Shown here piece by piece: positions 8,962 to 62,370 of a stretch of DNA of 64,000 nucleotides. This DNA comes from an uncultured Candidatus Saccharibacteria bacterium. GTDB taxonomy: Bacteria; Patescibacteriota; Minisyncoccia; Phycocordibacterales; DATDWN01. Location of the stretch: positions 107,255-171,254 of the forward strand of contig CAZQVT010000001.1 of assembly GCA_964596875.1 (NCBI GenBank). The letters are read 5' to 3'. The first letter of the stretch is position 1, and each line of letters begins with the position of its first letter. The position numbers and the translations under genes are program-made. Below the pieces are notes generated by a model that did not search any database, was not told the origin of the DNA, and was given only the letters and a program-made list of their open reading frames with translations.

Positions 8962-8970
8962 CGCGTCGTG

Positions 8971-13194: not shown

Positions 13195-13211
13195 TCGCGT
13201 TCGTCGCGACT

Positions 13212-17066: not shown

Positions 17067-17087
17067 CAAGGGCCACAAGCACACAAG

Positions 17088-17125
17088 GGGCGGGTCGCGT
17101 TCGCGCGACCACGCTCTTTTTCTTG
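17088..17125 (+). terminator. intrinsic terminator GGGTCGCGTTCGCGCGACC..CTCTTTTTCTT
   Basis: Its hairpin resembles GTCGCGTTCGTCGCGAC at 13196-13212. Confidence 0.6.
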
Positions 17126-17150
17126 TCAAAAATACACAAAGGTGGTTATA
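17116..17150 (+). promoter_or_regulatory. sigma70-like promoter TTGTCA-17-TTATAT
   Basis: TTGTCAaaaatacacaaaggtggTTATAT, upstream of ORF 17206. Confidence 0.5.
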
Positions 17151-17205
17151 TATCAAAGGAATTAGAGAGCAAGTCCGACTAACATCTTCCGCTAGGGGTA
17201 GAGAT

Positions 17206-17556: not shown

Positions 17557-17624
17557 CTCCTCTCGTCGTTCTTCGTTTCGAAAAAGGCTCGAAGGTGTTC
17601 GCCACACCCTCGAGCCTTTGTTCG

Positions 17625-19403
17625 TTATTTTTTATAATTTTTCTTTCTAAGTCTTACAGATTTTGGAGTAATCTCAATGTATTCATCGTCTGACATTATT
17701 TCCATGGCTTTCTCAATATCTAGTGGAAGAGTCGCAGCAAGGTATACCTTGTCGTCAGAACCAGAGGCTCGCATATTTGTAAGTTGTTTACCTTTTGTTG
17801 GGTTTACAGTAAGGTCATCTCCCTTTGATACGTTTCCGATAACCATTCCTTCGTAAACTTCAACTCCTGGGTCAATGTAAAGTGTGCCTCTTTGTTGTAG
17901 GTTATCTAGTGCAAAAGCAAGAGCTTTTCCTTTTTCCATAGAAACCATCGAGCCAAATTTTGTTTTCTTTATTTCACCAACGTATTCTCGAAACTCTAGA
18001 AATCTTGAAGAAAGAATTCCTAGACCTTTTGTGTCCACTACGAACTGACCTCTGTAACCAAGTAGTCCTCGTGTTGGGATTTCAAAAATAAGTCTTTGTG
18101 TGCCGTGACCTTGTTTTACATTCATTAGTAGACCTTTTCTTTCTGTAAGTCTTGAGATAATAGAACTAGCAAGTTCATCTGGAACGTCGATAGTAACTTC
18201 TTCAAAAGGTTCTGTCTGAACGCCGTTTATTTCTTTTATGATAACTTGCGGTTGTGATACCTGCATTTCGAAACCTTCTCTTCGCATATTTTCAAGAAGC
18301 ACTGCGATATGAAGTTCTCCACGTCCGTACACAGTAAAGTATTCGTTGTTGTTCCAGTCTACTTTTAGTCCAACGTTTATTTCTAGTTCTTTTTCTAGTC
18401 TGTCGCGGATTTGTCTACCAGTTACAAACTTTCCTTCACGTCCAGCGAAAGGTGAGTCGTTAACCAAAAAGTTTAGAGAGATAGTTGGCTCATCGATGTT
18501 GATAGATGGAAGAGACTCTTGAGAGTCGTTTTCGCAGATAGTGTCTCCAATATAAATATTTGGAAGTCCGGCTATCATCACGATATCTCCAGCGATTGCT
18601 TCCGCTGTTTCGATCCTTTTTGTTCCTTCAAAAGTGAACATTTTCGTAAGTCTGCCACTGAAAGTTTGGCCACTTGGTTGTTTTACGAAAACTGTTTGGC
18701 CACTTTTTACTTTTCCGTCGTAGATTCGGCAAACAGCCTCTCTTCCAAGAAAGTTATCATATGCAAGGTTAAAAGATTGCATTCGTAGAGGTGCTGAAAC
18801 ATCTGCTTTTGCAGGAGGCACAAGTTTTAGAATAGTTTCAAGTAGTGGAGTAAGGTCAGTGCTTTCGTCAGTAAGTTTCATTTTTGCGATACCTTGTCTA
18901 CCGATAGCAAAAACTGTAGTAAAGTCTAGTTGCTCGTCATTTGCACCTAGTTCTAGGAAAAGTTCCAGCACCATTTCGTGTACTTCGTCTGGTCTTGCTG
19001 CTGGTTTGTCGATTTTGTTTATGATAACGATAGGTTTTAGTCCTAGTTCAAGTGACTTTTTCAAAACGAAACGTGTTTGAGGCATTGGACCTTCTTGGGC
19101 ATCTACCAGAAGAAGCACAGTATCGATAGATCGCAATACTCGTTCTACTTCAGAACCGAAGTCAGAGTGTCCAGGTGTATCTACAATGTTAATTTTTGTA
19201 ACCTCTCTTCCAGAATCTTTAGCAGGGTAGTATACAGAAGTATTTTTCGCGTAAATAGTAATACCTCTCTCTTGCTCTAAGGCATTAGAGTCCATAGTCG
19301 CACCTTCTTCTGTAGTCATGCCTGTTTGTTTCATTAAGGCATCTGTCAGAGTTGTTTTTCCGTGGTCCACGTGGGCGATGATTGCTATGTTTCTTATTTC
19401 CAT
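17625..19403 (-). CDS. typA: translational GTPase BipA/TypA
   Basis: G1 [19 protein letters not shown]. The 592-aa length fits BipA. Confidence 0.9.
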
Positions 19404-25017: not shown

Positions 25018-25114
25018 AGAGGTCTATTTTATCTTAAATATTTCTTTATACAAATAGCGTAAACCGCTGGAGACGAAGTTCGTTCCAGCGGGGAGAGGTT
25101 TCCCTCATGAGGGT

Positions 25115-25612
25115 TCATTCCATACATCTGCGGTGTATGGTCCGGATTGAAAAGAACCACAATAGTCCAGTCGTTAGTGTTCCCACCAGGACCGAAACCA
25201 TTTTGGGCCAGCCCAGTTTCCACCAAATGTGCACGCCGTCGTGGATGTGTGCATACGCGGGTAGGAAATCGGGCTGAGGCAGGAACCTAAACTTTCCCCA
25301 GACCTGTACTAGGTCCGGTAGTAGCCCAGCAATGAGGCAGAGTGCCAGCAGGACTCGGTAGTCGGGAAGCCTGCGTCCGACTCGATACGTAACCCATGTC
25401 GACAGAGAGATGTCGCCGAGTGCCCACCAGAAGCCAAGCGAAATCGGGCTGGTGTAGTTATCTCCAGCAACGAGCCCAGGTTCGAGATGGGGGATTAGGT
25501 CAAGTGGTAGATGTGCCACAAGGACCAGGATTGGAAGCCAGACTAGTGCCGTTCTGGGTTTGGTCTTAATCCCTAGGGCGATTGCTGGCAGTATGTGCGC
25601 GCTCGGTAGCAT
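25115..25612 (-). CDS. GC-rich polytopic membrane protein, YdjM/DUF457-like (second, foreign-composition paralog)
   Basis: About 60% GC. VAHLPLDLIPH motif. Hairpin CCGCTGGAgacgaagttcgtTCCAGCGG downstream at about 25062-25089. Confidence 0.4.
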   Translation of the reverse strand: MLPSAHILPAIALGIKTKPRTALVWLPILVLVAHLPLDLIPHLEPGLVAGDNYTSPISLGFWWALGDISLSTWVTYRVGRRLPDYRVLLALCLIAGLLPDLVQVWGKFRFLPQPDFLPAYAHIHDGVHIWWKLGWPKMVSVLVGTLTTGLLWFFSIRTIHRRCME

Positions 25613-25617
25613 GTGAC

Positions 25618-25824
25618 CTACTCGATCCTGTGGAGCTCGCGGTCCATGGCGTAGATCGTTTTTTCTTCGTCTGTTTTGACCAGGTGGACTCCACCCGAGC
25701 CGATGCAGTTTTTCGCGACCACCCTGACCCTGCGACCATCGAGGTCCTTATTTCTGCCAAGCCCGGCGACGTTCTGCCGGAAAGTGTAGTAATTACCCTG
25801 GACGATCTCGTCGTTTGTGGCCAT
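25618..25824 (-). CDS. GC-rich small protein (68 aa), possible DUF2945/Tudor-like
   Basis: RBS GGAGGG 3 nt before the ATG. ...GRRVRVVAKNCIGSGGVHLVKTDEEKTIYAMDREL. The family guess is weak. Confidence 0.35.
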   Translation of the reverse strand: MATNDEIVQGNYYTFRQNVAGLGRNKDLDGRRVRVVAKNCIGSGGVHLVKTDEEKTIYAMDRELHRIE

Positions 25825-25899
25825 GCGCCCTCCGAGAGATAGCCTATATTAAAAAGGTTGGAAATTCAAATACACAAAAAGCGCCTATGGCGCTTTTCT

Positions 25900-25974
25900 G
25901 GCTCCGGCGGTAGGGATCGAACCTACGACCAATCGCTTAACAGGCGATTGCTCTACCACTGAGCTACACCGGAA
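25900..25974 (-). tRNA. tRNA-Asn (GTT)
   Basis: Reverse complement TCCGGTGTAGCTCAGTGGTAGAGCAATCGCCTGTTAAGCGATTGGTCGTAGGTTCGATCCCTACCGCCGGAGCCA folds as a cloverleaf with anticodon GTT and CCA encoded. Confidence 0.9.
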
Positions 25975-26089
25975 TAATAAGATAATATCAAAAATAACAC
26001 AGAATGCAATAAAAAATTTTACAAAGCGAAAGGCGAGGACGGGGTCCTCGCCTGGTCGCAACGGGTCTGTTTCAGTCCGTGCGACGTGA

Positions 26090-26596
26090 TTACTTCCTTT
26101 CCCACGGCTGGCGCTCTGCCAGCCTGTTGATCACCTCGATCAAGTTCCTCCGGTTGGCGCGCTCGTTCAGCAGTCCGAGTCGGTGGATCTGCTGATACTG
26201 CCAGATGACCTCCTCGACGGGAGCGCGGTACTCCTGCTTCACGACGTAGAGGCCGAGGTCTTCCGGAATGGTCTTGTCACCTTCGATCACGCTGTGCCCG
26301 TTCAGGACGTACTTGTGGTCCAGGTCGGGGTTCGCAGCGAACCAGCGGTACTCGGTCAGTTGTTCCTCCGAGACGTTCGGGAAGTTGCGCCTGGCCGACA
26401 TGAGTTCGGCCAAGATGAGCGCGTAGTCCCTGTTGTCGAGCTTGACCTCGTCGAGAACGAGCATCGGGTACGGCTCCGTGTGGGTGCTGTTGTTCCGAAT
26501 CGTGATGATTCGGTCTCGGGTAGCCTGAGCTTCCGAGCAGCCCGACACGACGACGATAAGGAAGAGAGCGGTTGCGACACGGGTGAAAGTGTCCAT
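26090..26596 (-). CDS. GC-rich lipoprotein (signal peptide MDTFTRVATALFLIVVVSGC, lipobox VSGC), unknown function
   Basis: About 58% GC. RBS AGGAGG 3 nt before ATG 26596. The ORF track allows an upstream start at 26638. Confidence 0.5.
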   Translation of the reverse strand: MDTFTRVATALFLIVVVSGCSEAQATRDRIITIRNNSTHTEPYPMLVLDEVKLDNRDYALILAELMSARRNFPNVSEEQLTEYRWFAANPDLDHKYVLNGHSVIEGDKTIPEDLGLYVVKQEYRAPVEEVIWQYQQIHRLGLLNERANRRNLIEVINRLAERQPWERK

Positions 26597-26733
26597 ATGC
26601 CTCCTAGGCAGTGGGTTGTCCATATATAATAGTATCATAAATAAGTAATATTGTCAAATATAAATATGTATTGTGCCGTAGTAAACTATGTTAAAATTAT
26701 TCCATTAATATTAATCATTTTTAATTCAAACAT

Positions 26734-43109: not shown

Positions 43110-43123
43110 ATCTCTTACTCACA

Positions 43124-43262
43124 TATCTTTTCTCCAGACCGCTCGCTTTTCCTGCGAAAAACTCACTTTGTCCTCAGTCGCAATTTGTCAATGAACCGAG
43201 ATTACTCGGACTTTGACAAAACCATGCTTGCTCCCTGCGGAGTCTTGCGAAAAGATCTGTCC
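43124..43262 (+). repeat. TIR element family 2, copy D (divergent)
   Basis: GTCCTCAGTCGCAATTTGTCAATG..CTTTGACAAAACCATGCTTGCTCCCTGCGGAGTC. The inner stem TTTGTCAA/TTGACAAA covaries with GTCGTCAAG/CTTGACGAC in the other copies. Confidence 0.5.
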
Positions 43263-43317
43263 GGCGATATTTATTTATAATATTTACAAAATAATTTTAG
43301 TGTGGTATCGTCAGAGG

Positions 43318-43600
43318 TGGAAAGGGGTGGCCTACGGAAAGCCCAGCCTCGGCTGGGTCTACCGGTGTCCTCCTCCTAAGGGTCATCCCTTTCCGTTTAT
43401 CGGGGTGCAGGGACTGCCTGGTGGGTTCCCAAAGAATGCCTCAGGGATGTTGTGTTCCTAGGGGCTCATTTGGTCCTTGCACCTCGATATCGAGGCACGG
43501 GAGTAGTCGCGTCGGGTTGGTTTCACAAAGTCGCGTATAACTACCAACCCGATTGGCTCCCGTGCCTCGAAAACTCAATGCACCCTCGGTGCATTTTTTC
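43318..43600 (+). ncRNA. GC-rich structured RNA (about 280 nt) of unknown class, with own promoter and terminator
   Basis: Promoter TTTACA-17-TATCGT (43283-43311). Stems GGCACGGGAG/CTCCCGTGCC, GGGTTGGT/ACCAACCC and CCAGCctcgGCTGG, plus alternative GGAAAGGG/CCCTTTCC pairings. Terminator ATGCACCCTCGGTGCAT plus T6 (43578-43599). No credible ORF. Confidence 0.45.
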
Positions 43601-43625
43601 ATATAATTTTTCAAGAATTCAAATT

Positions 43626-43654
43626 TGACAGTGACAATAAATAGTGTTATTATA
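43626..43654 (+). promoter_or_regulatory. sigma70-like promoter TTGACA-17-TATTAT for the amidase gene
   Basis: TTGACAgtgacaataaatagtgtTATTAT, then RBS AAGGAGG 4 nt before ATG 43695. Confidence 0.55.
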
Positions 43655-43694
43655 AACAAAGACTGACTTACATCCTGTAGGTCAAGGAGGCTCC

Positions 43695-44453
43695 ATGAGA
43701 TTGCTGATGCTTGTTCTTTTGGTCGCGTTGGCAGTCTTGCCTACCGAGACCAAAGAACAGAGAAAGTCACGACCCGCCTTGAGTGGTTGGGTTGTGGTTC
43801 TGGATCCAGGCCACGGTGGCGTTGATCCCGGTTCGTCCGGGACATTCAATGGCAAACGTGTGGTCGAGGATGAATACGTCTACGACGTAGCTCTTCGTGC
43901 CAAAAGGATTATCCGCTCAATGGGCGGACTATCCTTCCTGACGATCCAGGACAAAGTCGGCGAAAGATCATTGCCGGCACAATCAGTGTTTCCGGACGTT
44001 CGTTCGGAAACCTACACAGGAACATCTGTGGCTGTCCGTGCTGGTTCCGATGGTCTTAATCGTCGGCTTGCTTATGGCAACAGTATTAGCCGTAAGTATC
44101 CAAAGCATAGACAGGCTTGGATATCCATTCACTTCGATGTCCTCGGCAAAAACCGAGTCATCGAGGGGGTTCGGATCATCAAGGCAGAGTCGAGCAACAG
44201 GCTGGCGGATGCTCTCGAAGCGTCCTTTGCAAAGTACGACCGTTTGCGCGACTACGCGCCGGTTGTACAAAGCGGAGACCCGCAGTTTGGGATGCGCAAC
44301 CTGTTCATCCTGAATGGCAACAACAGGATTCGTGAAAAGGTGCTTGTTGAGTTGGGAAACTTCAACAACACAACAGACGTGTGGAGGGTTCGTAACTCCG
44401 TCACGCGTGAAGCGTACGCAAGAGCGATCGCAGAAGCCTTGCTACGCTGGTAA
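43695..44453 (+). CDS. N-acetylmuramoyl-L-alanine amidase (Amidase_3 family), secreted, GC-rich
   Basis: Signal peptide. VVLDPGHGGVDPG, ISIHFD and VLVELGNFNN (LVExGFxSN-like) motifs. About 58% GC. Confidence 0.75.
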   Translation: MRLLMLVLLVALAVLPTETKEQRKSRPALSGWVVVLDPGHGGVDPGSSGTFNGKRVVEDEYVYDVALRAKRIIRSMGGLSFLTIQDKVGERSLPAQSVFPDVRSETYTGTSVAVRAGSDGLNRRLAYGNSISRKYPKHRQAWISIHFDVLGKNRVIEGVRIIKAESSNRLADALEASFAKYDRLRDYAPVVQSGDPQFGMRNLFILNGNNRIREKVLVELGNFNNTTDVWRVRNSVTREAYARAIAEALLRW

Positions 44454-44461
44454 GGCGGGGA

Positions 44462-44541
44462 AATCCCGCACAGGTCGTCCGAAGGACGGCCTTTCTCGTT
44501 TATAAATTTTTACCAACTTGGACATCCGATGTCCAAGTTGG
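44462..44541. terminator. hairpin cluster: GCGGGGAAATCCCGC, GGTCGTCCgaaGGACGGCC plus TTTCTCGTTT, and a perfect 29-bp palindrome CCAACTTGGACATCCGATGTCCAAGTTGG (44513-44541)
   Basis: Seen directly. Lies between the amidase and mraZ. Confidence 0.55.
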
Positions 44542-44599
44542 ACTTTACATGAAACTCAAAATGGGTTTTATTTTTTTATCCACAGGATTTTTGGGACAA

Positions 44600-49487: not shown

Positions 49488-49516
49488 TTGACTTACTTGT
49501 ATAAATGTGATATACT
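49488..49516 (+). promoter_or_regulatory. near-consensus sigma70 promoter TTGACT-17-TATACT
   Basis: TTGACTtacttgtataaatgtgaTATACT. About 100-nt structured 5' UTR (ATGAGtaGGTGG..CCACCTCAT) before ORF 49620. Confidence 0.55.
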
Positions 49517-49619
49517 CTATACAGTAATTCCTATTCGTTATGAGTAGGTGGCTCGCAAGAGCAACGAGGCAGTATTTCCCACCTCATCAAAGGGAAATGT
49601 TCGTCACAAGGAGGCCGTT

Positions 49620-49991
49620 ATGGCCACCACGCAGAGTCATGGAATCACTTCGGGAACTCTGGAGTTGCAGAGACGTCGGATTGTCGCGGGCCCATCCCGC
49701 GAATGTCTGTTCGACTCTCTTCGGCTCGGGACCTTCCGTAACAGGATGGCCATTGCCTTCACGGTCGCGCCATCGCACCTGACTGGCAGAAACCTGGCAG
49801 ATGGTCGGCGGTTCGTTCCCGGCAACCTGATGTTCCACGCCACGGTTGTCATGATCCGTCCGGAAGACGGAAGTGGCTATAACTGGCTGTTCGAACTCAG
49901 CGACGAAAATCGGACGCTCGGTTCAGACAAGTTGCGTGGGTACATGAACACGAACCTTCGCACGGGCTGGGTCGAGCCGATCTTCGACTAG
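49620..49991 (+). CDS. GC-rich hypothetical protein (123 aa)
   Basis: RBS AAGGAGG 5 nt before the ATG. About 60% GC. Terminator CAGGCGCACttccttcgggatGTGCGCCTG plus T9 at 50007-50046. Confidence 0.45.
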   Translation: MATTQSHGITSGTLELQRRRIVAGPSRECLFDSLRLGTFRNRMAIAFTVAPSHLTGRNLADGRRFVPGNLMFHATVVMIRPEDGSGYNWLFELSDENRTLGSDKLRGYMNTNLRTGWVEPIFD

Positions 49992-50126
49992 ACCGCCTCC
50001 GCTTCACAGGCGCACTTCCTTCGGGATGTGCGCCTGGTTTTTTTGTAGGGGAATTATTTTGAGATGCCGTGGGATAGAGAGTTCAAGTTTTTTTACTTAG
50101 TTAATTTACTGTGCTAGCATTTGTAA

Positions 50127-50666: not shown

Positions 50667-50753
50667 TTTGCTTTTCGTCAAAAGCAAATTTTCCAGCCCC
50701 GGACTCAGCCGTTTTTCTTGCTAGAAAAACATGCTTCCGTCTTCACAAAAGCG

Positions 50754-50784
50754 AAAAAAGACTAGAGCAGTCTAGTCTTTTTTG
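50754..50784. terminator. bidirectional hairpin AAAAAAGACTAGAGCAGTCTAGTCTTTTTT
   Basis: Perfect stem with flanking A and T runs. Confidence 0.65.
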
Positions 50785-50798
50785 CACGCGGGCTTTTG

Positions 50799-50870
50799 TG
50801 ACCCTATGGGGAGTCGAACCCCAATTGCAGCCTTGAGAAGGCCGCGTCCTAACCATTAGACGATAGGGCC
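50799..50870 (-). tRNA. tRNA-Glu (CTC)
   Basis: Reverse complement GGCCCTATCGTCTAATGGTTAGGACGCGGCCTTCTCAAGGCTGCAATTGGGGTTCGACTCCCCATAGGGTCA folds as a cloverleaf. Anticodon loop TTCTCAA. CCA not encoded. Confidence 0.8.
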
Positions 50871-51067
50871 AATGTAAATTCTAAAAATCTTGAGAAAACT
50901 TCGTCCTAGTCACGTATCAAAGTCTGCTGACTTTGTACGCGACCCCACCTCACGCCGACGCGTTCCGGTCGTTCGTTTGGGTCCCAGCCCAAACTTCACC
51001 GCCATACGATAAGGCCATGAGGAACAAGGTGATAATAACATTTATAGAGAAACTTTCAAACGTTGTT

Positions 51068-51097
51068 TTGACAGTGATGAAAAATGTGTGCTATAGT
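51068..51097 (+). promoter_or_regulatory. sigma70 promoter TTGACA-18-TATAGT
   Basis: Upstream of a structured leader (CAACCTACC..GGTAGGTTG) and ORF 51161. Confidence 0.5.
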
Positions 51098-51160
51098 TTT
51101 GAGTGGACAACCTACCGCATGTGCAGTCGCACAAGGCTTCGGGTAGGTTGCGAGGGGATT

Positions 51161-51286
51161 ATGCTCGAGAGTTTCAGACTCGTTTTTGAGGGCGTGGTTC
51201 AGTATCTTCCACCCCCTCAGGTTCTCATCGGATGTCTCATCGCGGGTGAAATGGTTCGTGACCTGCATGACCATTTCGTACGGTAA
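51161..51286 (+). CDS. GC-rich micro-ORF (41 aa, MLESFRLVFEGVVQYLPPPQVLIGCLIAGEMVRDLHDHFVR)
   Basis: RBS GAGGGG 3 nt before the ATG. Terminator CCCCGTG..CACGGGGTTTTT at 51311-51353. Confidence 0.35.
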   Translation: MLESFRLVFEGVVQYLPPPQVLIGCLIAGEMVRDLHDHFVR

Positions 51287-51359
51287 CCTCCGCACGAACA
51301 ACAACATCGGCCCCGTGGGTGTGTGCAATGCGCGCACGCTCACGGGGTTTTTCGTATAC

Positions 51360-51388
51360 TTGACAGAATAGGGTTATATGGTGTATAA
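51360..51388 (+). promoter_or_regulatory. consensus sigma70 promoter TTGACA-17-TATAAT
   Basis: TTGACAgaatagggttatatggtgTATAAT. Followed by a 5' UTR with hairpins CAGTGGTAA..TTACCACTG and CTTGCatatcGCAAG. Confidence 0.6.
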
Positions 51389-51451
51389 TAATGGCAGGAC
51401 AGTGGTAAACTCTTGCATATCGCAAGGTGTTACCACTGCCGGGAGAACACC

Positions 51452-51559
51452 ATGTTCACACCCTTCGAACTCACGTTGACCCTCACGATCTTCGTCGGTC
51501 TCGGCGTCGTCCAGGCGCTCGCCAGGCGCGACCTCGTTCTGTCCATCCGGAAGCGCTAG
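51452..51559 (+). CDS. 35-aa hydrophobic peptide (MFTPFELTLTLTIFVGLGVVQALARRDLVLSIRKR), type I toxin-like
   Basis: Single TM helix plus basic C-terminus. Structured 5' UTR, RBS GGGAG, and terminator GAGCCTCTACGC..GCGTAGAGGCTC plus T-run at 51580-51620. Confidence 0.4.
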   Translation: MFTPFELTLTLTIFVGLGVVQALARRDLVLSIRKR

Positions 51560-51665
51560 ACGCACCTCCGGCCCACATCGAGCCTCTACGCACAACATCG
51601 CGTAGAGGCTCATCTTTTTTATATGATATTTAAAAAAAACAAATAAAATGATATATTAGGAAAAT

Positions 51666-52757: not shown

Positions 52758-55493
52758 ATGGAAAATCCTACTAACCAGCGCTTTGCTACACCAGAAGCTG
52801 AAATTGCTTACTTGCGAGAGCAGATTTCTAACAAAGAAAAAATTCTTCGCGAAACAAACCCAAACTTAAACAGTGAAGAAGTTGTAAAAGAAGAAATAGA
52901 AAAATACAAAAATGCTTTGTCGCACGAAGTTTTGGACGAAACCTTGCAACTTTCAAAAGTAGACATGGAGTCTATTGTTTTAAACCTAGAACCAGAGACT
53001 CATGATAACAAAATAGAGGAACTTTTAAGTATTTTAAATACAAAAGGCATCAAAAACGCGATGTCTGTTTTGGCAGAAATGAAAGACCCGCACTTAGAAG
53101 ACGATTTTCATAGGTTTTTAGTGCAATATATAAAACATGGCTATGAGGCAAAAGGTGTAAGTATTTCTGTAGATGAGTTTCGTGGACTAGATATGACTTT
53201 GTTTGAGGTTGTTTTGCCAGAAGAAGCAGGGGAACATAATAAAAAGCCACTAAAGGAACTTGTTTCTAGTATGGAACAGTTTTTGGCCGGAATGCTGTCA
53301 GTTGTAAATGAAAACGGCACAAGAGACTACTCTAAAAACTATATTGTACTTGAAATAGCAAACCCAAACGGTAGTGACCAGTTTGTTTTCTATGTTGCAG
53401 TGCCAAACTCGTATAGACAACTTTTTGAAAAACAGATCATTTCTGTATTTCACAATGCAGTTCTAAACGAGGCAGTGTGTGACTACAATATTTTCAATAC
53501 TGACGGTGTTTCTGTCGGTTCTGTTCTAGAGGCAACCGTAAATCCCATCTACCAGTTTAAAACCTACGAGAGTTTTGACCACGACCCAATGAACGTTATC
53601 TTAAACTCTTTTTCTAAAATCCAAAAAGAAGGTGAGGGCGCGGGTATCCAAATAGTTTTTGCTCCAAAAGACGACTATTTCCTGAAAAATTATAAATACG
53701 CTATAGAACAAATAGAAAATGGTGAAAAAGTAAAAGACGCTATATATCTTCCAGAAACAATTGCCGGAAGTTTTGGTAAAGGTCTAAAGTCTTTGTTCAA
53801 AGCGTCTCCAAAAGAAGAAGAAAAAAAACCAGTAGATACAGAAGCGATAGATAAGATTAAAAAGAAAATGAGTAGTGTGATAGTGGCTACAAACATTCGT
53901 CTTATCGCTTCTGCAAAAACCAGACTAGAAGCTGAAAAGATTTTGCAAACACTAGAGTCTAGTTTCAACCAGTTTTCTGACCCTAGTGCAAACGGCTTGA
54001 AAGCAAAAAGACTAGACAAAGCAAGTTTGGAAAAAATGTTTAGAAACTATTCTTTTCGAAGTTATAACCACAACGAACTTTTACCTCTAAACCTTCATGA
54101 GGTTACTTCGCTGTACCACTTCCAAAACAATGGACTTTCACCTACGCCACAACTAAAACAAACACAGGCTGTTTCTGCTCCTGCTCCTGCAGAAATGACT
54201 GCAGGCGGAACACTTTTGGGAACGAACACATATAGAAACACTGACACCGCAATATATATAAAAGACAACGACCGTTTGAGACATACATATACTATTGGTC
54301 AGACAGGTACAGGTAAAACAACCTTGCTTGTAAATATGATCATGCAGGACATAAACCAGGGAAATGGTTGCTGTTTTATCGACCCACACGGAAGTGATGT
54401 ACAAAATATTCTTTCAAATATTCCAAAAGATAGAATAAAAGACGTGATTTATTTTGATCCAAGTTATACAGAAAGACCGATGGCACTAAACATGCTGGAG
54501 TATGATAGAAGTCATCCTGAACAAAAAACTTTTGTGGTAAACGAGTTGTTTAGTATCTTCCAAAAACTATATGGAGGCGTGCCAGAGTCTTTGGGGCCAA
54601 TGTTCGAGCAATACTTTAGAAACGCAACAATGCTTGTGATAGAAGACCCAGACACAGGATGCACTTTGCTTGATGTTTCCAGAGTTATGACAAACAAAGC
54701 CTTTCGAGATATGAAAGTAGCCAACTGTAAAAACCCAGTAGTTGTTCAGTTCTGGAAAGAAATAGCTGAAAAAGCAGGCGGTGAAGCAAGTTTGGCAAAC
54801 ATTGTTCCATATATTACTTCAAAGTTTGATGTATTTTTGGCAAACGATATTATGCGACCTATAGTAGCGCAAGAAAAATCTTCTTTTGATTTCCGAAAGA
54901 TAATGGATGAAAAGAAAATACTTCTTGTAAACCTTTCAAAGGGAAGATTGGGGGACATAAACGCCAACCTTATCGGTCTTATACTTGTAGGTAAAATACT
55001 TATGGCTGCACTTTCTCGTGTGGACAAACTTGGCACAGAAGACTTGCCTCCTTTCTATCTATATATAGACGAGTTTCAAAATATTACGACAAACTCTATT
55101 TCAACTATTCTTTCTGAGGCAAGAAAATATAAACTTTCTTTAAATATTGCGCACCAGTTTATCGCCCAACTTCAACAGGAAATAAAAGATGCTGTGTTTG
55201 GAAATGTTGGTTCAATGTTTGTGTATCGTGTGGGTGCAGAAGATGCGGAGTTTCTAGAAAAACAGTTCTCGCCTGTGTTTACTGCAAAAGATATTATGAA
55301 TATCGACAACTATAATTTTTATACAAAAATGTTGGTAGATGGAAAAACAGTAAAAGCGTTCAATGTAAAAGCAAACCCAGCACCAAAAGGAAACCCTGGT
55401 GTAGTAGAAAACTTAAAACAACTTTCATATCTTACATACGGAGGGGATAGAGCAAAAATAGAAGAAGAGATACTGGCGAAATATAAAAAATAA
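52758..55493 (+). CDS. large P-loop ATPase, TraG/TraD/VirD4-like type IV secretion coupling-protein family (DUF87-like), orphan
   Basis: Walker A IGQTGTGKTT, DPHGS, Walker B LYIDEFQN. 911 aa with a long N-terminal soluble domain. No other T4SS genes in the window. Confidence 0.55.
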   Translation: MENPTNQRFATPEAEIAYLREQISNKEKILRETNPNLNSEEVVKEEIEKYKNALSHEVLDETLQLSKVDMESIVLNLEPETHDNKIEELLSILNTKGIKNAMSVLAEMKDPHLEDDFHRFLVQYIKHGYEAKGVSISVDEFRGLDMTLFEVVLPEEAGEHNKKPLKELVSSMEQFLAGMLSVVNENGTRDYSKNYIVLEIANPNGSDQFVFYVAVPNSYRQLFEKQIISVFHNAVLNEAVCDYNIFNTDGVSVGSVLEATVNPIYQFKTYESFDHDPMNVILNSFSKIQKEGEGAGIQIVFAPKDDYFLKNYKYAIEQIENGEKVKDAIYLPETIAGSFGKGLKSLFKASPKEEEKKPVDTEAIDKIKKKMSSVIVATNIRLIASAKTRLEAEKILQTLESSFNQFSDPSANGLKAKRLDKASLEKMFRNYSFRSYNHNELLPLNLHEVTSLYHFQNNGLSPTPQLKQTQAVSAPAPAEMTAGGTLLGTNTYRNTDTAIYIKDNDRLRHTYTIGQTGTGKTTLLVNMIMQDINQGNGCCFIDPHGSDVQNILSNIPKDRIKDVIYFDPSYTERPMALNMLEYDRSHPEQKTFVVNELFSIFQKLYGGVPESLGPMFEQYFRNATMLVIEDPDTGCTLLDVSRVMTNKAFRDMKVANCKNPVVVQFWKEIAEKAGGEASLANIVPYITSKFDVFLANDIMRPIVAQEKSSFDFRKIMDEKKILLVNLSKGRLGDINANLIGLILVGKILMAALSRVDKLGTEDLPPFYLYIDEFQNITTNSISTILSEARKYKLSLNIAHQFIAQLQQEIKDAVFGNVGSMFVYRVGAEDAEFLEKQFSPVFTAKDIMNIDNYNFYTKMLVDGKTVKAFNVKANPAPKGNPGVVENLKQLSYLTYGGDRAKIEEEILAKYKK

Positions 55494-55543
55494 ATTATGG
55501 GCCGATCGTGGCGTTCGACCAGCCCATAAACCGCAGGTTTGCA

Positions 55544-55750
55544 TTAGGCACCTCGAGCTTTCTTCAGAAGTTCGAGTCGGAGTCCTCTCGCGATTTCTCT
55601 CACATCCATCCTGATCCTTTCGTTCTCCTCGGTGTCGAGGGAGTTTCTGCGGAACGCTTCCTCGAAGATTTCACCGAGCAGGTTTGGGTTCGCTCCGCGT
55701 CTTATGAACTCTCTGTTCACTTCGCGAGCGATTTTTTCGGCGAGACTCAT
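55544..55750 (-). CDS. GC-rich small helical protein (68 aa)
   Basis: RBS AAGGAGG 5 nt before ATG 55750. About 60% GC. Second gene of a two-gene minus-strand cassette. Confidence 0.4.
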   Translation of the reverse strand: MSLAEKIAREVNREFIRRGANPNLLGEIFEEAFRRNSLDTEENERIRMDVREIARGLRLELLKKARGA

Positions 55751-55842
55751 AGGCACCTCCTTTCCGACATTATTATCGCACAATTTTTTGCATTGAAATA
55801 GGGGCGCGCCTTTCGACGTGCCCCCAGTTCGGCGAGGAGGAA

Positions 55843-55959
55843 CTAGTCCTTGTCGCCGTTCGGTAGCCCCCGGTAGTCGAGTCGGGGATCGGTCTTGCGA
55901 CCTTTCCACTTCACTGCAAACGAGGACTTCTTCACCTTACCTTCATTTTTCTTGGCCAT
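55843..55959 (-). CDS. GC-rich Lys-rich micro-protein (38 aa, MAKKNEGKVKKSSFAVKWKGRKTDPRLDYRGLPNGDKD)
   Basis: RBS AAAGGAGG 8 nt upstream. The segment ...KGRKTDPRLDYRGL has faint bL33-like character. Confidence 0.35.
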   Translation of the reverse strand: MAKKNEGKVKKSSFAVKWKGRKTDPRLDYRGLPNGDKD

Positions 55960-55983
55960 GATGTTGGCCTCCTTTCATTTATT

Positions 55984-56013
55984 ATTATACTACAATAACA
56001 CCTGAAGTGTCAA
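55984..56013 (-). promoter_or_regulatory. consensus sigma70 promoter TTGACA-18-TATAAT on the minus strand
   Basis: Minus strand reads TTGACActtcaggtgttattgtagTATAAT, driving the 38-aa and 68-aa ORFs. Confidence 0.55.
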
Positions 56014-57611: not shown

Positions 57612-57929
57612 ATGGAATTCGCGATAATCAACACTGGTGGAAAGCAATACAAAGTCTCTAAGGGAGACACTCTTAAAATTGAGAAAATCAAAGGTGATTT
57701 CAAGGTAGGAGACAAGATCGTTTTCGATAAAGTTATGCTGGTAGAAAGTGGTAAGGACACTACTATTGGTACTCCATATATTGCAAAGGCATCTGTTGAA
57801 GCAACTCTAAAAGAAATCGGTAAAAACAAAACTGTAGAAGTTGTAAAATACAAGCAAAAGAGTAGATACTACAAACGAAACGGACACAGACAACCATACT
57901 TTAAGGTTGAAATTGCAGGAATAAAATAA
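57612..57929 (+). CDS. rplU: 50S ribosomal protein L21
   Basis: MEFAIINTGGKQYKVSKGDTLKIEKI. 105 aa. Confidence 0.9.
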   Translation: MEFAIINTGGKQYKVSKGDTLKIEKIKGDFKVGDKIVFDKVMLVESGKDTTIGTPYIAKASVEATLKEIGKNKTVEVVKYKQKSRYYKRNGHRQPYFKVEIAGIK

Positions 57930-57936: not shown

Positions 57937-57965
57937 AATGACCTCCGAAAGGAGGTTGTTTTTGT
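57937..57965. terminator. bidirectional terminator AAAATGACCTCCGAAAGGAGGTTGTTTTTG
   Basis: Perfect hairpin with A-run 5' and T-run 3'. Confidence 0.75.
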
Positions 57966-58540
57966 ATAAGGAAAAGGGCTAGGATCGAATGGTCACGTGG
58001 GGTGTGCGTAGAGACCAAGGATACCTAGCCCTTCTGCCGACTTGGGTCGGCTTCAGTTGAAACAGTATAAAGAGCGAGACCGGTAAGACCGATCTGGAGG
58101 GAAAACACGTTCCTCCACGTTGATGCGTGTATTTCACGCACCCCCGAAATCGAGCCTCCACATACTGGCCGCCAACCTATCGCCCTCACTAGGGTCGGGT
58201 TGGACATCATCCAGTCTCGCGTATTAACCAACATTTGTAATGCAGGCAAATACTCGAGACCGGCTTCTGTATGGAACTATAGCACAAATAAAAAATATTT
58301 CAACCATTAGAAAACGGTCGCCAGGCGACCGTCGTAGGTGGTTCCGTAGGAGTGTCGCAGTGTACAAACCGAAAGACAGTTCGGTTTGAATCCTTTTCTG
58401 TGCCACCAGAATGGTATATATCCTCGACGCAACATTCAAACCGTTACAGACTGGGTCGGGAGTCCCCAAGTGTGGAATCGGTGAAGGGCATCTAGAGAAT
58501 CTACACACGGCAGACCTAACTGAACCATTTCACATACTAT
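57966..58540. ncRNA. GC-rich structured region without credible ORF, candidate ncRNA(s); class and strand unresolved
   Basis: About 57% GC between rplU and recR. Stems GGGCTAGG..CCTAGCCC, GGAGGgaaaacacgttCCTCC, TGCGTGtatttcaCGCA, GTCGCCagGCGAC and AAACCGAAagacagTTCGGTTT. Internal minus-strand promoter-like TTGAAA-16-TATAGT (about 58270-58305). Confidence 0.35.
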
Positions 58541-58544
58541 ATTA

Positions 58545-59156
58545 TTAGTTTCTGTTTTTCAAGGCGTTTTTTATAGTGTCGCTGTCAGAGTATTCCAGTT
58601 CGGTTCCGGTAGAAAGTCCTCTGCCAAGAGTTGAGATTTTAATATTATTTTTAGTTGTAACATCTTTTAGAAATTCAGTTAGGTAGTTTACAGTGTTTTC
58701 TCCTTCAGGGTTGTAGTTTAATGCTAAAATAATTTCATTTAGTCCTGTTGAGACTTTTGTTTGTATGGTTTGAAGTAAATCTTTTTGTCTTATTCTATTT
58801 TCAGGATTTTTTTCAAGTATTGGGACAGTGCCACCTAGTATAAAATAATAGCCGTTATAAAACTTTGTTTTTTCTATATTTTCATAATCCACATCATGGG
58901 AAACTATCATAAGTTGTTTTGGGTCCCGGTTAGTGTCTCTACAAACTGGACAAAGAGTATTTGTGCTGTTTGGAAAAAACCTAAAACAACTTGTGCACGA
59001 ATGTACTGTGGATCGAACCTCTTTTATTAACCCAGCAAGGTCGGTTGCATACCCCGGGTTTTTGTTCAGTAAAAAGTACACAAAACGTTTTGCTTGTCGT
59101 GGTCCGATTCCAGGAAACTCCTTAAAGAGTTCTATGAGTCGTTCAGTGTTGTTCAT
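58545..59156 (-). CDS. recR: recombination protein RecR
   Basis: Zn finger CTSCFRF..CPVCRD and Toprim domain. 203 aa. Confidence 0.9.
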   Translation of the reverse strand: MNNTERLIELFKEFPGIGPRQAKRFVYFLLNKNPGYATDLAGLIKEVRSTVHSCTSCFRFFPNSTNTLCPVCRDTNRDPKQLMIVSHDVDYENIEKTKFYNGYYFILGGTVPILEKNPENRIRQKDLLQTIQTKVSTGLNEIILALNYNPEGENTVNYLTEFLKDVTTKNNIKISTLGRGLSTGTELEYSDSDTIKNALKNRN

Positions 59157-60825: not shown

Positions 60826-61968
60826 TTATGGAGTTGTTGTAAATGATTGAACAGTGCCAAATGCTGTACCAGCAGCGTTACTTGCTAAGGCACAGTAGTA
60901 ATAAGTTGTAGATGAGCTTAGTGAAGTTACAAAGTTTGAGTAGGCAACAGAAGTAGAACCATTTCCCAATGAAACTCCGCCTACAAGTGGGGCTCTAGTT
61001 CCAAAAGTATCGTCACAAACTACTGGATCAGTTGTGCTGTATCTGAACCAACCAGTAGATGTAGATTTGTTTGGGTTGGCGTTACCTTTCAGAAGTGCTG
61101 TTGAAGAGGTAGACGCTATTGCAGTGTCAGTGCTTACTGTTGGTGCAGCTAGAGATGTTGTTGATGATGCAATGTTAGAGTAAGAAGATTGACCACCAAA
61201 ATTATACGCTCGTATTCTGTACCAGTATTTTGTATTTGGACTTAGTCCTGTATCGTTATACGCAATTGAATTTGTAGATGTTGTCGCTATTTGTGAAAAT
61301 GGTCCAGACACAGATGTTCCTCTTTCAACAAAATATCCATCTTCAATAGTATTTACATCACTCCATGCAAGGTTAATTTGCGATGAGGAAACTGTAGAGG
61401 CAGTTAGGTATGTTGATGAAGTTGAAATTGTAAGTGATGTGTAGGTTATTACAGTTCCAATTCTACTCAGTCTTGCACCTCTTGTTCCCGCAGAATACAC
61501 TGCGCCGGACTCTAGTGTAGATGTAGAAGTTTTAAGAATATTCAAACTTGAAAAAGTAGATGCAGAAAGTCCGGCTGGTGTTGTGCCTGTTAGAGCATAT
61601 CCTCCAGCGTCACTACTATTTGTTCCATTCATTCTATAAAATACATTCATTGTTGAACTTCCACCACCTGCAGAATTTCTAGATGCGCATGGAGTTATAG
61701 CGATGTCTGTAATTACGGAACCGTTTGGCACTGTGGCCAAACTTATTCCATATGAGTCTCGGTTTCCAACAGTATTTGTAGAGTTATAATCCGTAGTTCC
61801 GTTACAAGTCGCCTCGTCTACAAGAGCAAAATGTGACGCGCCACTGTTTGGTGTCCATGATGTGTAGTTTCCATCAGAAACTGGCACAAGTGATGATGTT
61901 GTTAGCGCACTAGCTACACCCGCTATTGCAAGTAGAGAAAGTATTCCAAAATAATATTTTCTATTCAT
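60826..61968 (-). CDS. secreted Ser/Thr-rich surface protein with fibronectin type III domain
   Basis: Signal peptide. S/T-rich low-complexity regions. FN3-like QINLAWSDV..YWYRIRAYN. Confidence 0.55.
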   Translation of the reverse strand: MNRKYYFGILSLLAIAGVASALTTSSLVPVSDGNYTSWTPNSGASHFALVDEATCNGTTDYNSTNTVGNRDSYGISLATVPNGSVITDIAITPCASRNSAGGGSSTMNVFYRMNGTNSSDAGGYALTGTTPAGLSASTFSSLNILKTSTSTLESGAVYSAGTRGARLSRIGTVITYTSLTISTSSTYLTASTVSSSQINLAWSDVNTIEDGYFVERGTSVSGPFSQIATTSTNSIAYNDTGLSPNTKYWYRIRAYNFGGQSSYSNIASSTTSLAAPTVSTDTAIASTSSTALLKGNANPNKSTSTGWFRYSTTDPVVCDDTFGTRAPLVGGVSLGNGSTSVAYSNFVTSLSSSTTYYYCALASNAAGTAFGTVQSFTTTP

Positions 61969-62104
61969 TGATTAAAATTTAATTATAATTTGTTAACTGT
62001 ATAATTATAACAAAATAAATTTGATTGTTTGTGAAGTTGGGGATACGAACAAGGCCACACATGCGTGTGGCCTGTACTACGTTTCGCCCACGTAGTTGGG
62101 GTTG

Positions 62105-62293
62105 TTACTCGGCCCTGTTTCTGGCCTCGATGAGCGCGCGTCCTCTTTCAGCCCGCGCCTTGTGGCTGGGGTCTGATCTGTTGCACTCGCACACTCCGTC
62201 GGCGCAGTCCATGTCGTGGGCTGCTTCCATGTCTCCAGCGAGTTTACGGACGAGGGTCTTGTCGGTCGACAGTGGTCGCAGCTGCGGGTCCAT
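62105..62293 (-). CDS. GC-rich small protein (62 aa) with DCADGVCEC Cys motif
   Basis: Minus-strand consensus promoter TTGACT-17-TACAAT (62314-62342). RBS GGAGGC 6 nt before the ATG. Downstream hairpin GGCCACACgcatGTGTGGCC. Confidence 0.45.
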   Translation of the reverse strand: MDPQLRPLSTDKTLVRKLAGDMEAAHDMDCADGVCECNRSDPSHKARAERGRALIEARNRAE

Positions 62294-62370
62294 AGCAAAG
62301 CCTCCAATAGAGAATTGTATCAAGCAACAGTTATTTAGTCAAGTCAAGTATAAATAATATTGTGGAAACA

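What the first reader, a model, noticed from the sequence alone, without database searches (positions are those of the whole stretch)
57966..58540. 575-bp GC-rich ORF-less block between rplU and recR: candidate structured RNA(s)
High-GC islands in AT-rich genomes are typically structural RNAs. This one has at least five hairpins and a terminal GGGCTAGG..CCTAGCCC helix. The only ORFs are RBS-less, overlap one another and are on the minus strand. A minus-strand promoter-like TTGAAA-16-TATAGT sits in the middle, and the bidirectional terminator at 57937-57965 could end a ~320-nt minus-strand transcript. I could not assign it to tmRNA or RNase P by motif.
Basis: seen in the sequence. Interest (0 to 1): 0.55.

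Follow-up and report, generated by a model that had tools for sequence, protein, structure and literature searches.

The report
Two tandem structured small-RNA genes
The GC-rich gap between rplU and recR in this Patescibacteria (CPR) genome holds two neighbouring genes for structured non-coding RNAs of about 220 and 300 nt that match no known RNA family; each has its own promoter and terminator on the minus strand, and their function is unknown.

Summary
The block is two RNA genes rather than one, and both lie on the minus strand.

- **Module B:** promoter TTGAAA-17-TAGTAT at 58562-58534, a 189-nt core at 58527-58339, and its own terminator at 58333-58305. The core folds as a four-way junction closed by a long helix.
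- **Module A:** promoter TTGAAA-16-TATAGT at 58303-58276, an RNA of about 300 nt from 58269 to about 57968, and its own terminator. The shared rplU/recR bidirectional terminator follows it.

Homologues exist only in some related Zambryskibacteria-like genomes, always in the same recR-rplU slot. B occurs in 8 genomes and A in 10, and each can occur without the other. Every homologue keeps the promoter hexamers and spacing and a covarying terminator.

Covariation is strong. In B, 95% of cells pair, 35 of 65 pairs show double changes, and shifted-register controls pair only 34-47%. G·U pairs outnumber A·C mismatches only when the helices are read on the minus strand. No reading frame is conserved.

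Rfam 15, ARAGORN and Pfam give no match. Family A also conserves two mutually exclusive helices, which suggests an RNA switch. These are new families of an ordinary kind of gene.

The parts
58534..58562 (-). Module B promoter: -35 TTGAAA (58562-58557, inside the last codons of recR), 17-nt spacer, -10 TAGTAT (58539-58534)
   Evidence: Promoter scan. All 8 B homologues have TTGAnn-16/17-TAnTAT at the same distance from the first helix, while the spacer sequence is not conserved.
58339..58527 (-). Module B RNA core (189 nt): long closing helix P1 (5' and 3' ends pair) enclosing a four-way junction with arms Pa (irregular and highly conserved: GAUGCCCUUC.CCGAUUCCACACC ... GGUCUGUAACGG..GAAUGUUGCGUC), Pb and Pc
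   Evidence: MFE folds of all 8 homologues are congruent. On CM alignment A9, 95.1% of cells pair and 35 of 65 pairs have changes on both sides; shifted-register controls pair 34-47%. Pair counts are WC 411, G.U 34, A.C 8 on the minus strand. Models R1 and R2 find only these copies in 647 kb.
58305..58333 (-). Module B intrinsic terminator: hairpin (G)ACGGTCGC-CUG-GCGACCGU(C), then UUUUCUAAU
   Evidence: Terminator scan, overlapping hit on the minus strand at 58320-58301. The stem covaries in all 8 homologues and is always followed by a U-run on the minus strand only.
58276..58303 (-). Module A promoter: -35 TTGAAA (58303-58298), 16-nt spacer, -10 TATAGT (58281-58276)
   Evidence: Promoter scan. 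9 of 10 A homologues match TTGAnn-16/17-TAnnnT at the same position; the tenth has TTGTTA.
58211..58263 (-). Module A 5' hairpin: X (CCGGUCUCG, 58263-58255) pairs with X' (CGAGACUGG, 58219-58211), with inner helices and an ACA loop. This is the family's hallmark.
   Evidence: On MAFFT alignment A10, 89.8% of cells pair and 12 of 22 pairs have changes on both sides; shifted-register controls pair 31-40%. CM R3 finds it in 10 genomes at 58-72 bits. G.U 19 against A.C 7.
58074..58083 (-). Module A segment X2 (CCGGUCUCGC): pairs with X' as an alternative long-range helix enclosing the roughly 130-nt central domain (about 58210-58084). This pairing excludes the X-X' hairpin.
   Evidence: On the same unbiased alignment, 85.7% of cells pair and 7 of 10 pairs have changes on both sides; shifted-register controls pair 33-46%. 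In L078, X and X2 differ in sequence yet both pair with X' through wobble pairs. X2 was seen by eye in L024, L025 and L077.
57966..58269 (-). Module A transcript (about 300 nt, TSS near 58269), including its own terminator: extended stem GGGCUAGG.../...CCUAGCCC (58031-57976) followed by UUUUCCUUAU (57975-57966)
   Evidence: MFE -128.4 kcal/mol, z = -6.66. Every homologue has a covarying GC-rich stem plus U-run at this position.
57937..57965 (.). Bidirectional terminator shared by rplU (+) and the recR/RNA side (-): ACCTCC-GAAA-GGAGGT (57941-57956) with T-runs on both sides
   Evidence: (minus-strand hit) and the sequence. In relatives with an empty slot (L006, L021, L036), a terminator hairpin of this kind is all that lies between the two stop codons.
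57612..57929 (+). rplU (ribosomal protein L21), flanking gene
58545..59156 (-). recR, flanking gene. Its last codons supply the -35 box of module B.

Best explanation
The block is two adjacent, independently transcribed genes for structured non-coding RNAs on the minus strand. Each is a complete unit: a sigma-70-type promoter, then the structured RNA, then an intrinsic terminator.

**Module B (about 220 nt).** It starts about 7 nt after a -10 box that follows the recR stop codon. Its two ends pair into a long helix that closes a four-way junction. One arm (Pa) is an irregular helix with a nearly invariant sequence, a bulged A and fixed C.U and C.C mismatches. That pattern looks like a binding surface for a protein or another RNA.

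**Module A (about 300 nt).** It starts at the internal promoter. It opens with a roughly 22-bp hairpin (X-X'), carries a variable central domain and ends in its own terminator. Segment X' can pair with X or with a downstream segment X2. Both pairings covary, so the RNA is selected to adopt two mutually exclusive folds.

**Status of each step.**
- Shown: structure conservation, strand, gene boundaries, lack of coding capacity, patchy distribution.
- Inferred (roughly 30% confidence in any specific reading): both act in trans as stable RNAs, for example as ribonucleoprotein components or regulators. No gene lies downstream for them to control in cis. Module A toggles between folds in response to a partner, or after cleavage of its long 5' duplex.

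The RNAs are accessory cargo of a variable slot downstream of recR. In other relatives the slot is empty or holds small-protein genes.
For: **Homologues and modularity.** nhmmer and CM searches find B in WIN, L001, L005, L007, L076, L078, L079 and L082. They find A in WIN, L001, L015, L022, L024, L025, L076, L077, L078 and L079. B occurs alone in L005, L007 and L082; A occurs alone in L015, L022, L024, L025 and L077.

**Structure.**
- B: 95.1% of cells pair, 35 of 65 pairs have changes on both sides, and 0 of 500 shuffles reach this; shifted-register controls pair 34-47%.
- A hairpin: 89.8% paired, 12 of 22 pairs with double changes.
- A X'-X2 helix: 85.7% paired, 7 of 10 pairs with double changes. 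Both A counts come from plain MAFFT alignments.

**Strand.**
- G.U against A.C on the minus strand is 34:8 in B, and 19:7 and 9:3 in the two A helices.
- MFE folds summed over all homologues give G.U/A.C of 23/2 (B) and 42/3 (A) on the minus strand, against 14/13 and 30/10 on the plus strand.

**Transcription signals.**
- TTGAnn-16/17-TAnnnT lies upstream of 8 of 8 B copies and 9 of 10 A copies with non-conserved spacers. The same strict motif occurs only 27 times in the 128 kb of both window strands.
- Covarying terminator stems followed by U-runs appear on the minus strand only.

**Not coding.** The longest ORFs differ in strand, frame and position between homologues. Spacing between conserved blocks differs by non-multiples of 3. 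There are no Pfam hits.

**Accessory.** The recR-rplU gap ranges from 5 to 2384 bp across 74 related loci. Empty sites contain only the terminator.
Against: - No expression data are available. Promoters and terminators are consensus-based predictions.
- The B core is not unusually stable on its own (z = -1.94).
- The B alignment used for pair counts was fitted to the minus-strand model, which inflates its pairing percentage and the G.U excess.
- There are only 8 to 10 sequences per family, all from one clade, so some double changes are inherited rather than independent events.
- Per-sequence MFE does not uniformly favour the minus strand: WIN, L005 and L082 fold B slightly better on the plus strand.
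- The function is entirely inferred.
- Two scans of the metagenome collection and two of the viral collection found no further true copies. Distribution outside the recR slot is therefore unknown.
Confidence: 0.72

Rival explanations
1. The whole block is one large (about 575 nt) structured RNA made as a single transcript. It would be either a recR 3' UTR extension or a stand-alone RNA, comparable in size to ROOL or OLE.
For: The two halves are adjacent in 5 genomes (WIN, L078, L079, L076, L001). The total size resembles known large ornate RNAs. The whole block has a strong z-score.
Against: Each half occurs without the other in several genomes. A covarying terminator with a U-run and then a conserved promoter separate the halves in every genome that has both. 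No covarying helix was seen linking the halves. No Rfam hit to ROOL, GOLLD, OLE or any other family.
Confidence: 0.07
2. The RNAs are encoded on the plus strand, read in the same direction as rplU.
For: My first by-eye examples of G.U pairs favoured the plus strand. WIN, L005 and L082 fold module B slightly better on the plus strand. A terminator-like hairpin exists on the plus strand at 58365-58388.
Against: Summed over homologues, the plus-strand folds have as many A.C mismatches as G.U pairs (14/13), whereas the minus-strand folds give 23/2. In the consensus helices G.U to A.C is 34:8 on the minus strand. No conserved plus-strand promoter exists. The block begins directly after the rplU terminator, and the conserved promoter and terminator signals make sense only on the minus strand.
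Confidence: 0.05
3. The block is a remnant or cargo of mobile DNA (MITE-like elements, IS ends, or cassettes integrated at an attachment site in the recR 3' end). On this reading the hairpins and repeats are DNA-level features, not RNA structure.
For: The slot is hypervariable (5-2384 bp) and its contents are a mosaic. The block sits exactly between the terminator T-run and the recR stop codon. In L007 an 18-nt direct repeat of the recR 3' end flanks another insertion. X, X' and X2 form an inverted- and direct-repeat pattern.
Against: Each module is single-copy in the 64-kb window and in 647 kb of related loci. The G.U over A.C asymmetry, and the fact that X and X2 differ in sequence while both still pair with X', indicate selection on RNA rather than repeat homogenisation. 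Promoters and terminators are conserved. No transposase or integrase is nearby. This rival could still explain how the genes arrived without contradicting that they are RNA genes.
Confidence: 0.08
4. Module A, module B or both are cis-regulatory RNAs (a riboswitch or attenuator) that control read-through into downstream sequence.
For: Module A has the classic arrangement of mutually exclusive helices (X-X' against X'-X2). In L077, X2 overlaps the 5' arm of the terminator. Module B is a structured domain followed closely by a terminator.
Against: Nothing lies downstream to regulate. After B comes either A with its own promoter or the convergent rplU; after A come two terminators and the antisense strand of rplU. 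In WIN, X2 lies about 45 nt upstream of the terminator stem and does not overlap it. No Rfam riboswitch hit.
Confidence: 0.06
5. The block encodes small proteins or is a decaying (frameshifted) gene acquired from a higher-GC donor.
For: Three successive overlapping minus-strand ORFs (94, 74 and 60 aa) tile the block like a frameshifted gene. Other fills of the same slot are genuine small-protein genes with Shine-Dalgarno sequences (L013, L029, L034, L038).
Against: No Shine-Dalgarno sequence precedes the ORFs, and they mostly start with GTG or TTG. The longest ORFs differ in strand, frame and position among homologues. Indels between conserved blocks are not multiples of 3. There are no Pfam matches. 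The substitutions preserve base pairs.
Confidence: 0.02

Closest known systems
Stand-alone structured bacterial ncRNAs of unknown function found as GC-rich intergenic regions in AT-rich genomes (the Breaker-lab 'GC-IGR' candidates, e.g. raiA motif RNA, and the larger OLE, ROOL and GOLLD)
   Same: GC-rich island in an AT-rich genome. Own promoter and terminator. Multi-helix junction with covariation. Conserved nucleotides concentrated in internal loops. No adjacent gene that explains the RNA.
   Different: No sequence or structure match to any Rfam 15 family, in the window or in 9 homologous loci. Found so far only in Zambryskibacteria-like Patescibacteria and only in one genomic slot. Much narrower distribution than those classes.
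6S RNA (SsrS)
   Same: A length of about 190-220 nt. The 5' and 3' ends pair in a long closing helix. Stand-alone gene with a strong promoter.
   Different: 6S RNA is a rod with a large central bubble. Module B has a four-way junction instead. No Rfam 6S hit. 6S is a core gene, whereas module B is absent from this slot in most close relatives.
Transcription attenuators and riboswitch expression platforms (mutually exclusive helices 1:2 against 2:3)
   Same: Module A conserves two exclusive pairings of one segment (X-X' and X'-X2), and both covary.
   Different: The competing partners are about 130 nt apart. No regulated gene lies downstream. The terminator is generally not part of the competition.
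Bacterial class C group II introns and other elements that insert just after intrinsic terminators
   Same: The block lies immediately after a terminator hairpin and T-run, and its size is similar to that of an ORF-less intron.
   Different: No domain V and no Rfam group II hit. The RNAs run on the strand opposite to the one such an intron would use relative to the rplU terminator. They have their own promoters and terminators. There is no reverse transcriptase gene.

Membership tests
RNase P RNA (bacterial type A/B) | Match to the covariance model, including the conserved P4 regions (GGAAAGUCC ... ACAGAA..CGGCUUA) | tested here: not met
   No Rfam hit at gathering score or at E<=10, on either strand, in the window or in 9 homologous loci. 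The motif is not seen in the sequence.
RNase P RNA (bacterial type A/B) | Universal presence as a core gene | tested here: inconclusive
   The RNA is absent from this slot in most relatives, but the rest of those genomes could not be searched.
tmRNA | tRNA-like domain plus a tag-peptide reading frame | tested here: not met
   ARAGORN finds only two tRNAs in the window. No Rfam tmRNA hit in the block.
6S RNA | Rod-like fold with a central bubble; match to the Rfam 6S models | tested here: not met
   The consensus fold of B is a four-way junction. No Rfam hit.
Large ornate RNAs (ROOL, GOLLD, OLE, HEARO, raiA) | Match to the family covariance model | tested here: not met
   cmscan against all 4227 Rfam 15 families at E<=10 on the block, and at E<=1 on 9 homologous loci, found none.
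Group II intron (class C, terminator-targeting) | Domain V/VI and 5' GUGYG; insertion after a terminator on the transcribed strand | tested here: not met
   No Rfam intron hit. The position after a terminator is met, but the conserved structure is on the opposite strand.
Riboswitch / cis-regulatory leader | A regulated gene immediately downstream on the same strand | tested here: not met
   Only terminators, another promoter-driven RNA or the convergent rplU lie downstream.
Independent bacterial sRNA gene (promoter, RNA, intrinsic terminator) | Conserved sigma-70-type promoter at a fixed distance upstream | tested here: met
   8 of 8 B copies and 9 of 10 A copies have TTGAnn-16/17-TAnnnT. The motif is rare in the window (27 hits in 128 kb).
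Independent bacterial sRNA gene (promoter, RNA, intrinsic terminator) | Intrinsic terminator at the 3' end | tested here: met
   Covarying GC-rich stems with U-runs on the minus strand in all homologues.
Independent bacterial sRNA gene (promoter, RNA, intrinsic terminator) | A transcript is detected | not testable with these tools
   No expression data are available.
Structured (not merely antisense or seed-type) ncRNA | Secondary structure conserved through compensatory changes | tested here: met
   with shuffle and shifted-register controls.
Protein-coding gene or pseudogene | A reading frame conserved across orthologues | tested here: not met
   and the indel lengths.
MITE / IS-derived repeat | Multiple dispersed copies and terminal inverted repeats | tested here: not met
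   Single copy in the window and in 647 kb of related loci. Whole genomes were not searched.

The most novel reading that the evidence does not exclude
Family A is a trans-acting RNA switch: a stand-alone RNA whose two conserved, mutually exclusive folds are toggled by a ligand, a protein or RNase III cleavage of its 22-bp 5' duplex. Family B is the RNA subunit of a so far unknown ribonucleoprotein or a new ribozyme. Together they would be part of a set of exchangeable small genes, RNA or protein, that are loaded into a promoter-equipped slot at the recR 3' end in ultra-small CPR symbionts, perhaps for host interaction or phage defence.
Probability: 0.15. Interest if true: 0.75.

Novelty: new member of a known kind. 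Interest (0 to 1): 0.5.

Why it matters
CPR/Patescibacteria have tiny genomes of roughly 1 Mb or less with very little non-coding DNA, and my literature searches found no description of their non-coding RNAs. Two well-supported structured RNA families with their own promoters are present in some close relatives and absent from others. That suggests these reduced symbionts keep accessory RNA genes under selection.

Family A's pair of mutually exclusive, covarying helices in an RNA with nothing downstream to regulate is an unusual design that deserves biochemical study.

The variable slot downstream of recR is also a natural place to look for lineage-specific functions. In different genomes it carries A, B, small-protein genes, a GNAT gene or nothing.

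This remains a new member of an ordinary class. Hundreds of orphan structured RNAs are already known, and no function can be assigned here.

Tried and rejected
**Searches that found nothing useful**
- Rfam at gathering score on the window, and at E<=10 on the block, gave only chance hits to the terminator. Rfam at E<=1 on 9 homologous loci gave nothing in the elements.
- ARAGORN found no tmRNA.
- blastn of the block against the window's other GC-rich islands found no similarity, so the islands are not copies of one element.
- Two exact-pattern scans of metagenome contigs with conserved B blocks returned nothing, even though L076 comes from a JGI metagenome. That collection evidently lacks these contigs.
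- Two viral scans gave one chance hit inside a phage coding region.
- blastn against the phage and plasmid collections gave no match.
- Three literature searches found nothing on CPR small RNAs.

**Ideas considered and dropped**
- I first favoured the plus strand from a few by-eye G.U pairs. Systematic counts and the promoter and terminator evidence reversed that.
- Per-sequence MFE comparison of the two strands was inconclusive.
- The improved CM R2 found no distant B copies in the other slot fills.
- I considered Y RNA (a GGUC-containing closing helix), a T-loop reading of the conserved UUCAA, K-turn and sarcin-ricin motifs in arm Pa, and a two-piece tmRNA. None fitted on inspection, and none is claimed.

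**Technical failures**
- My own dinucleotide-shuffle script timed out. I used strand folding instead.
- Exact look-up of the window's own RecR in the look-up of encoding contigs failed, so the source contig was not retrieved.

Full report
**1. Observation**

The window is AT-rich, with GC 0.396. Its RecR protein is 75-86% identical to RecR of Zambryskibacteria/Paceibacteria-type Patescibacteria MAGs. rplU (57612-57929, +) and recR (58545-59156, -) converge on a 615-bp gap. GC in the gap reaches 0.56.

The block at 57966-58540 folds much better than dinucleotide shuffles on both strands, with z = -5.5 on plus and -6.4 on minus.
- the GGGCTAGG/CCTAGCCC helix;
- the minus-strand TTGAAA-16-TATAGT at 58303-58276;
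- the terminator hairpin at 57941-57956.

Rfam 15 gives nothing at gathering score or at E<=10, and ARAGORN finds no tmRNA.

**2. Homologues and the nature of the locus**

I fetched 74 loci around RecR relatives from GTDB species representatives. I added six more recR-bearing loci (L076-L083) through exact look-ups of close RecR proteins.

The dnaB-recR / rplU-rmuC synteny is conserved, but the recR-rplU gap ranges from 5 to 2384 bp. In genomes with an empty gap, only a bidirectional terminator hairpin separates the two stop codons. In the window, the block sits exactly between that terminator's T-run and the recR stop codon.

Gap contents in different genomes form a mosaic of unrelated segments. 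nhmmer and later covariance models show that the window's block consists of two independent modules.

| Module | Window span | Genomes with it | Occurs alone in |
|---|---|---|---|
| B | about 58305-58540 | WIN, L001, L005, L007, L076, L078, L079, L082 | L005, L007, L082 |
| A | about 57966-58300 | WIN, L001, L015, L022, L024, L025, L076, L077, L078, L079 | L015, L022, L024, L025, L077 |

**3. Strand and gene boundaries**

On the minus strand every module B copy is preceded by TTGAnn, a 16- or 17-nt spacer of non-conserved sequence, and TAnTAT. The first helix begins about 6-8 nt after the -10 box. In WIN, L078 and L079 the -35 hexamer is formed by the last codons of recR. In L001, L076, L005 and L082 a separate -35 lies further downstream.

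Every B copy ends with a hairpin whose stem sequence differs between genomes. On the minus strand only, a U-run (UUUUCUAUU or similar) follows that hairpin.

Module A has the same layout:
- The promoter is TTGAnn-16/17-TAnnnT in 9 of 10 copies; L079 has TTGTTA.
- Each copy has its own covarying GC-rich terminator with a U-run.

The strict promoter motif occurs only 27 times on both strands of the 64-kb window.

Base-pair statistics agree with the minus strand:
- MFE folds of all homologues give 23 G.U against 2 A.C one-by-one mismatches on the minus strand for B, and 42 against 3 for A. On the plus strand the figures are 14/13 and 30/10.
- In the consensus helices of B there are 34 G.U and 8 A.C cells on the minus strand.
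- In A's helices, on an unfitted MAFFT alignment, the counts are 19 against 7 and 9 against 3.

My first impression from a few pairs had favoured the plus strand, and these counts overturned it. Per-sequence MFE alone was inconclusive.

**4. Structure of module B**

Independent MFE folds of the eight homologues share the same architecture.
- A long closing helix P1 is formed by the 5' and 3' ends. Its outer 8-11 bp differ completely between genomes.
- P1's inner part is conserved: GGUCUGUUGUGUGUAG pairs with UUGUACACGGCAACACUC.
- P1 encloses a four-way junction with arms Pa, Pb and Pc.

A single-sequence CM built from the window's fold (R1) recovered all homologues at 29-90 bits and nothing else credible in 648 kb.

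| Measure on alignment A9 | Value |
|---|---|
| Cells forming standard pairs | 95.1% |
| Pairs with changes on both sides | 35 of 65 |
| Shuffles reaching any measure | 0 of 500 |
| Pairing with partners shifted 1-3 columns | 34-47% |

Because this alignment was fitted to the model, the percentage is optimistic. The same compensatory changes in the inner P1 helix are visible in plain MAFFT alignments:
- U-A to C-G in the window;
- G-C to U-A in L076;
- G-C to A-U in L078 and L082.

Arm Pa is an irregular helix with nearly invariant sequence, a bulged A and fixed C.U and C.C mismatches. That is the pattern expected for a recognition surface.

The core alone is not thermodynamically exceptional (z = -1.94). 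The improved model R2 found no distant copies.

**5. Structure of module A**

The RNA is very stable (z = -6.66). It begins with a roughly 22-bp hairpin in which X (58263-58255) pairs with X' (58219-58211). On a MAFFT alignment of seven sequences, 89.8% of cells pair and 12 of 22 pairs change on both sides, against 31-40% when shifted. A CM of this hairpin (R3) identifies ten genomes at 58-72 bits.

A downstream segment X2 (58083-58074) is also complementary to X'. That alternative long-range helix is itself supported: 85.7% paired and 7 of 10 pairs with changes on both sides, against 33-46% when shifted. I saw X2 by eye in L024, L025 and L077.

In L078, X and X2 differ in sequence but both still pair with X' through wobble pairs. 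That argues for selection on RNA pairing rather than homogenisation of DNA repeats.

X' cannot pair with both partners at once, so the family conserves two exclusive folds. The central domain between X' and X2 is variable.

**6. Not coding**

- The longest ORFs in the homologues differ in strand, frame, position and length, and mostly start with GTG or TTG.
- Distances between conserved blocks differ by 3, 5, 10 and 12 nt.
- The window's ORFs have no Pfam match.

**7. What it is and how it probably works**

Shown: two tandem minus-strand genes for structured RNAs of about 220 nt (B) and about 300 nt (A). Each has a conserved promoter and terminator. Both are accessory and occupy a variable slot.

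Inferred: both act in trans. B is followed either by A's promoter or by the convergent rplU. A is followed by two terminators. Neither therefore has a gene to regulate in cis.

B's conserved irregular arm suggests binding to a protein or RNA partner. A's exclusive helices suggest a switch. One possible trigger is a binding partner. Another is cleavage of the long 5' duplex, which is long enough to be an RNase III substrate (my knowledge, not tested here). I give any specific functional reading about 30%.

**8. Comparison with known families**

No Rfam 15 family matches on either strand, in the window or in nine homologous loci. That covers RNase P RNA, tmRNA, 6S, SRP RNA, OLE, ROOL, GOLLD, HEARO, raiA, group I and II introns and the riboswitches.

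The closest kind is the orphan structured ncRNA found as a GC-rich intergenic region in an AT-rich genome. That discovery logic is the one described in PMC8632094 and PMC11109978 (abstracts listed).

- B shares with 6S RNA only its size and its closing helix.
- A shares with attenuators only the principle of exclusive helices.
- The position just after a terminator recalls class C group II introns, but the strand, the promoters and the absence of domain V exclude that.

**9. Verdict**

These are new families of a known kind of gene, and interest is moderate. The main gaps are expression data, distribution outside this slot, and function.

Noticed in passing
window 12770-13861, 16648-17663, 25040-26662, 49505-50120, 50682-51664, 61788-62366 (also 7323-9255 and 43116-44572): The window holds about ten GC-rich islands (GC 0.46-0.54 against 0.40). 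They share no sequence similarity. Most of their ORFs have no Pfam hit, and no Rfam family matches. The strict promoter motif precedes GC-rich DNA at 13351-13379 (+), 17156-17129 (-), 49488-49516 (+) and 51059-51032 (-) without an obvious Shine-Dalgarno sequence, and at 62342-62314, 26657-26629, 25869-25841 and 43625-43653 with one. Some islands may hold further ncRNA genes and others small-protein genes; for example, 13386-13700 contains an SD+ATG small ORF.
   Followed up: partly
window 55443-56006: A GC-rich gap between a 911-aa ORF and the yqeY-like gene holds two minus-strand small ORFs, each preceded by a good Shine-Dalgarno sequence. One is 68 aa, starting at ATG 55750 (MSLAEKIAREVNREF...). 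The other is 38 aa, at 55959-55843. Read from the sequence.
   Followed up: no
L013 1554-1803, L038 4609-4867, L029, L034 (recR-rplU slot): In these relatives the same slot carries small-protein genes instead of RNAs. Their promoter takes its -35 box from the recR 3' end. L013 and L038 encode related proteins of about 56 aa that end in QWHA. L003, L012 and L030 carry a GNAT-like gene in the slot. The slot therefore behaves like a promoter-equipped site with exchangeable cargo.
   Followed up: partly
L007 4575-4591 and about 5170-5187: An 18-nt direct repeat of the recR 3' end (TTGAAAAATAGACAGTAA) flanks an insertion of about 560 bp that carries a 156-aa ORF, placed between recR and module B. 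This hints at an insertion mechanism that duplicates or targets the recR terminus.
   Followed up: no
L078 about 1500-1640; L001 about 5340-5485; L076 about 3075-3200; also L005, L077, L040, L046, L031: A further shared segment ('module 0', alignment A3 columns 1-190) lies between modules A/B and rplU in several genomes, and matches in both orientations in L076. It was not characterised.
   Followed up: no
window 50871-51031 (-): A consensus-like promoter (TTGAAA-16-TATTAT, 51059-51032) lies about 160 nt upstream of tRNA-Glu (50870-50798), with GC-rich sequence in between. This could be a long structured tRNA leader or another small RNA.
   Followed up: no
L001 236-356 (+): A sub-threshold Rfam match to Rickettsia sRNA47 (39.7 bits, gathering score 60, E = 8e-7), far from the element. 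Probably not meaningful.
   Followed up: no
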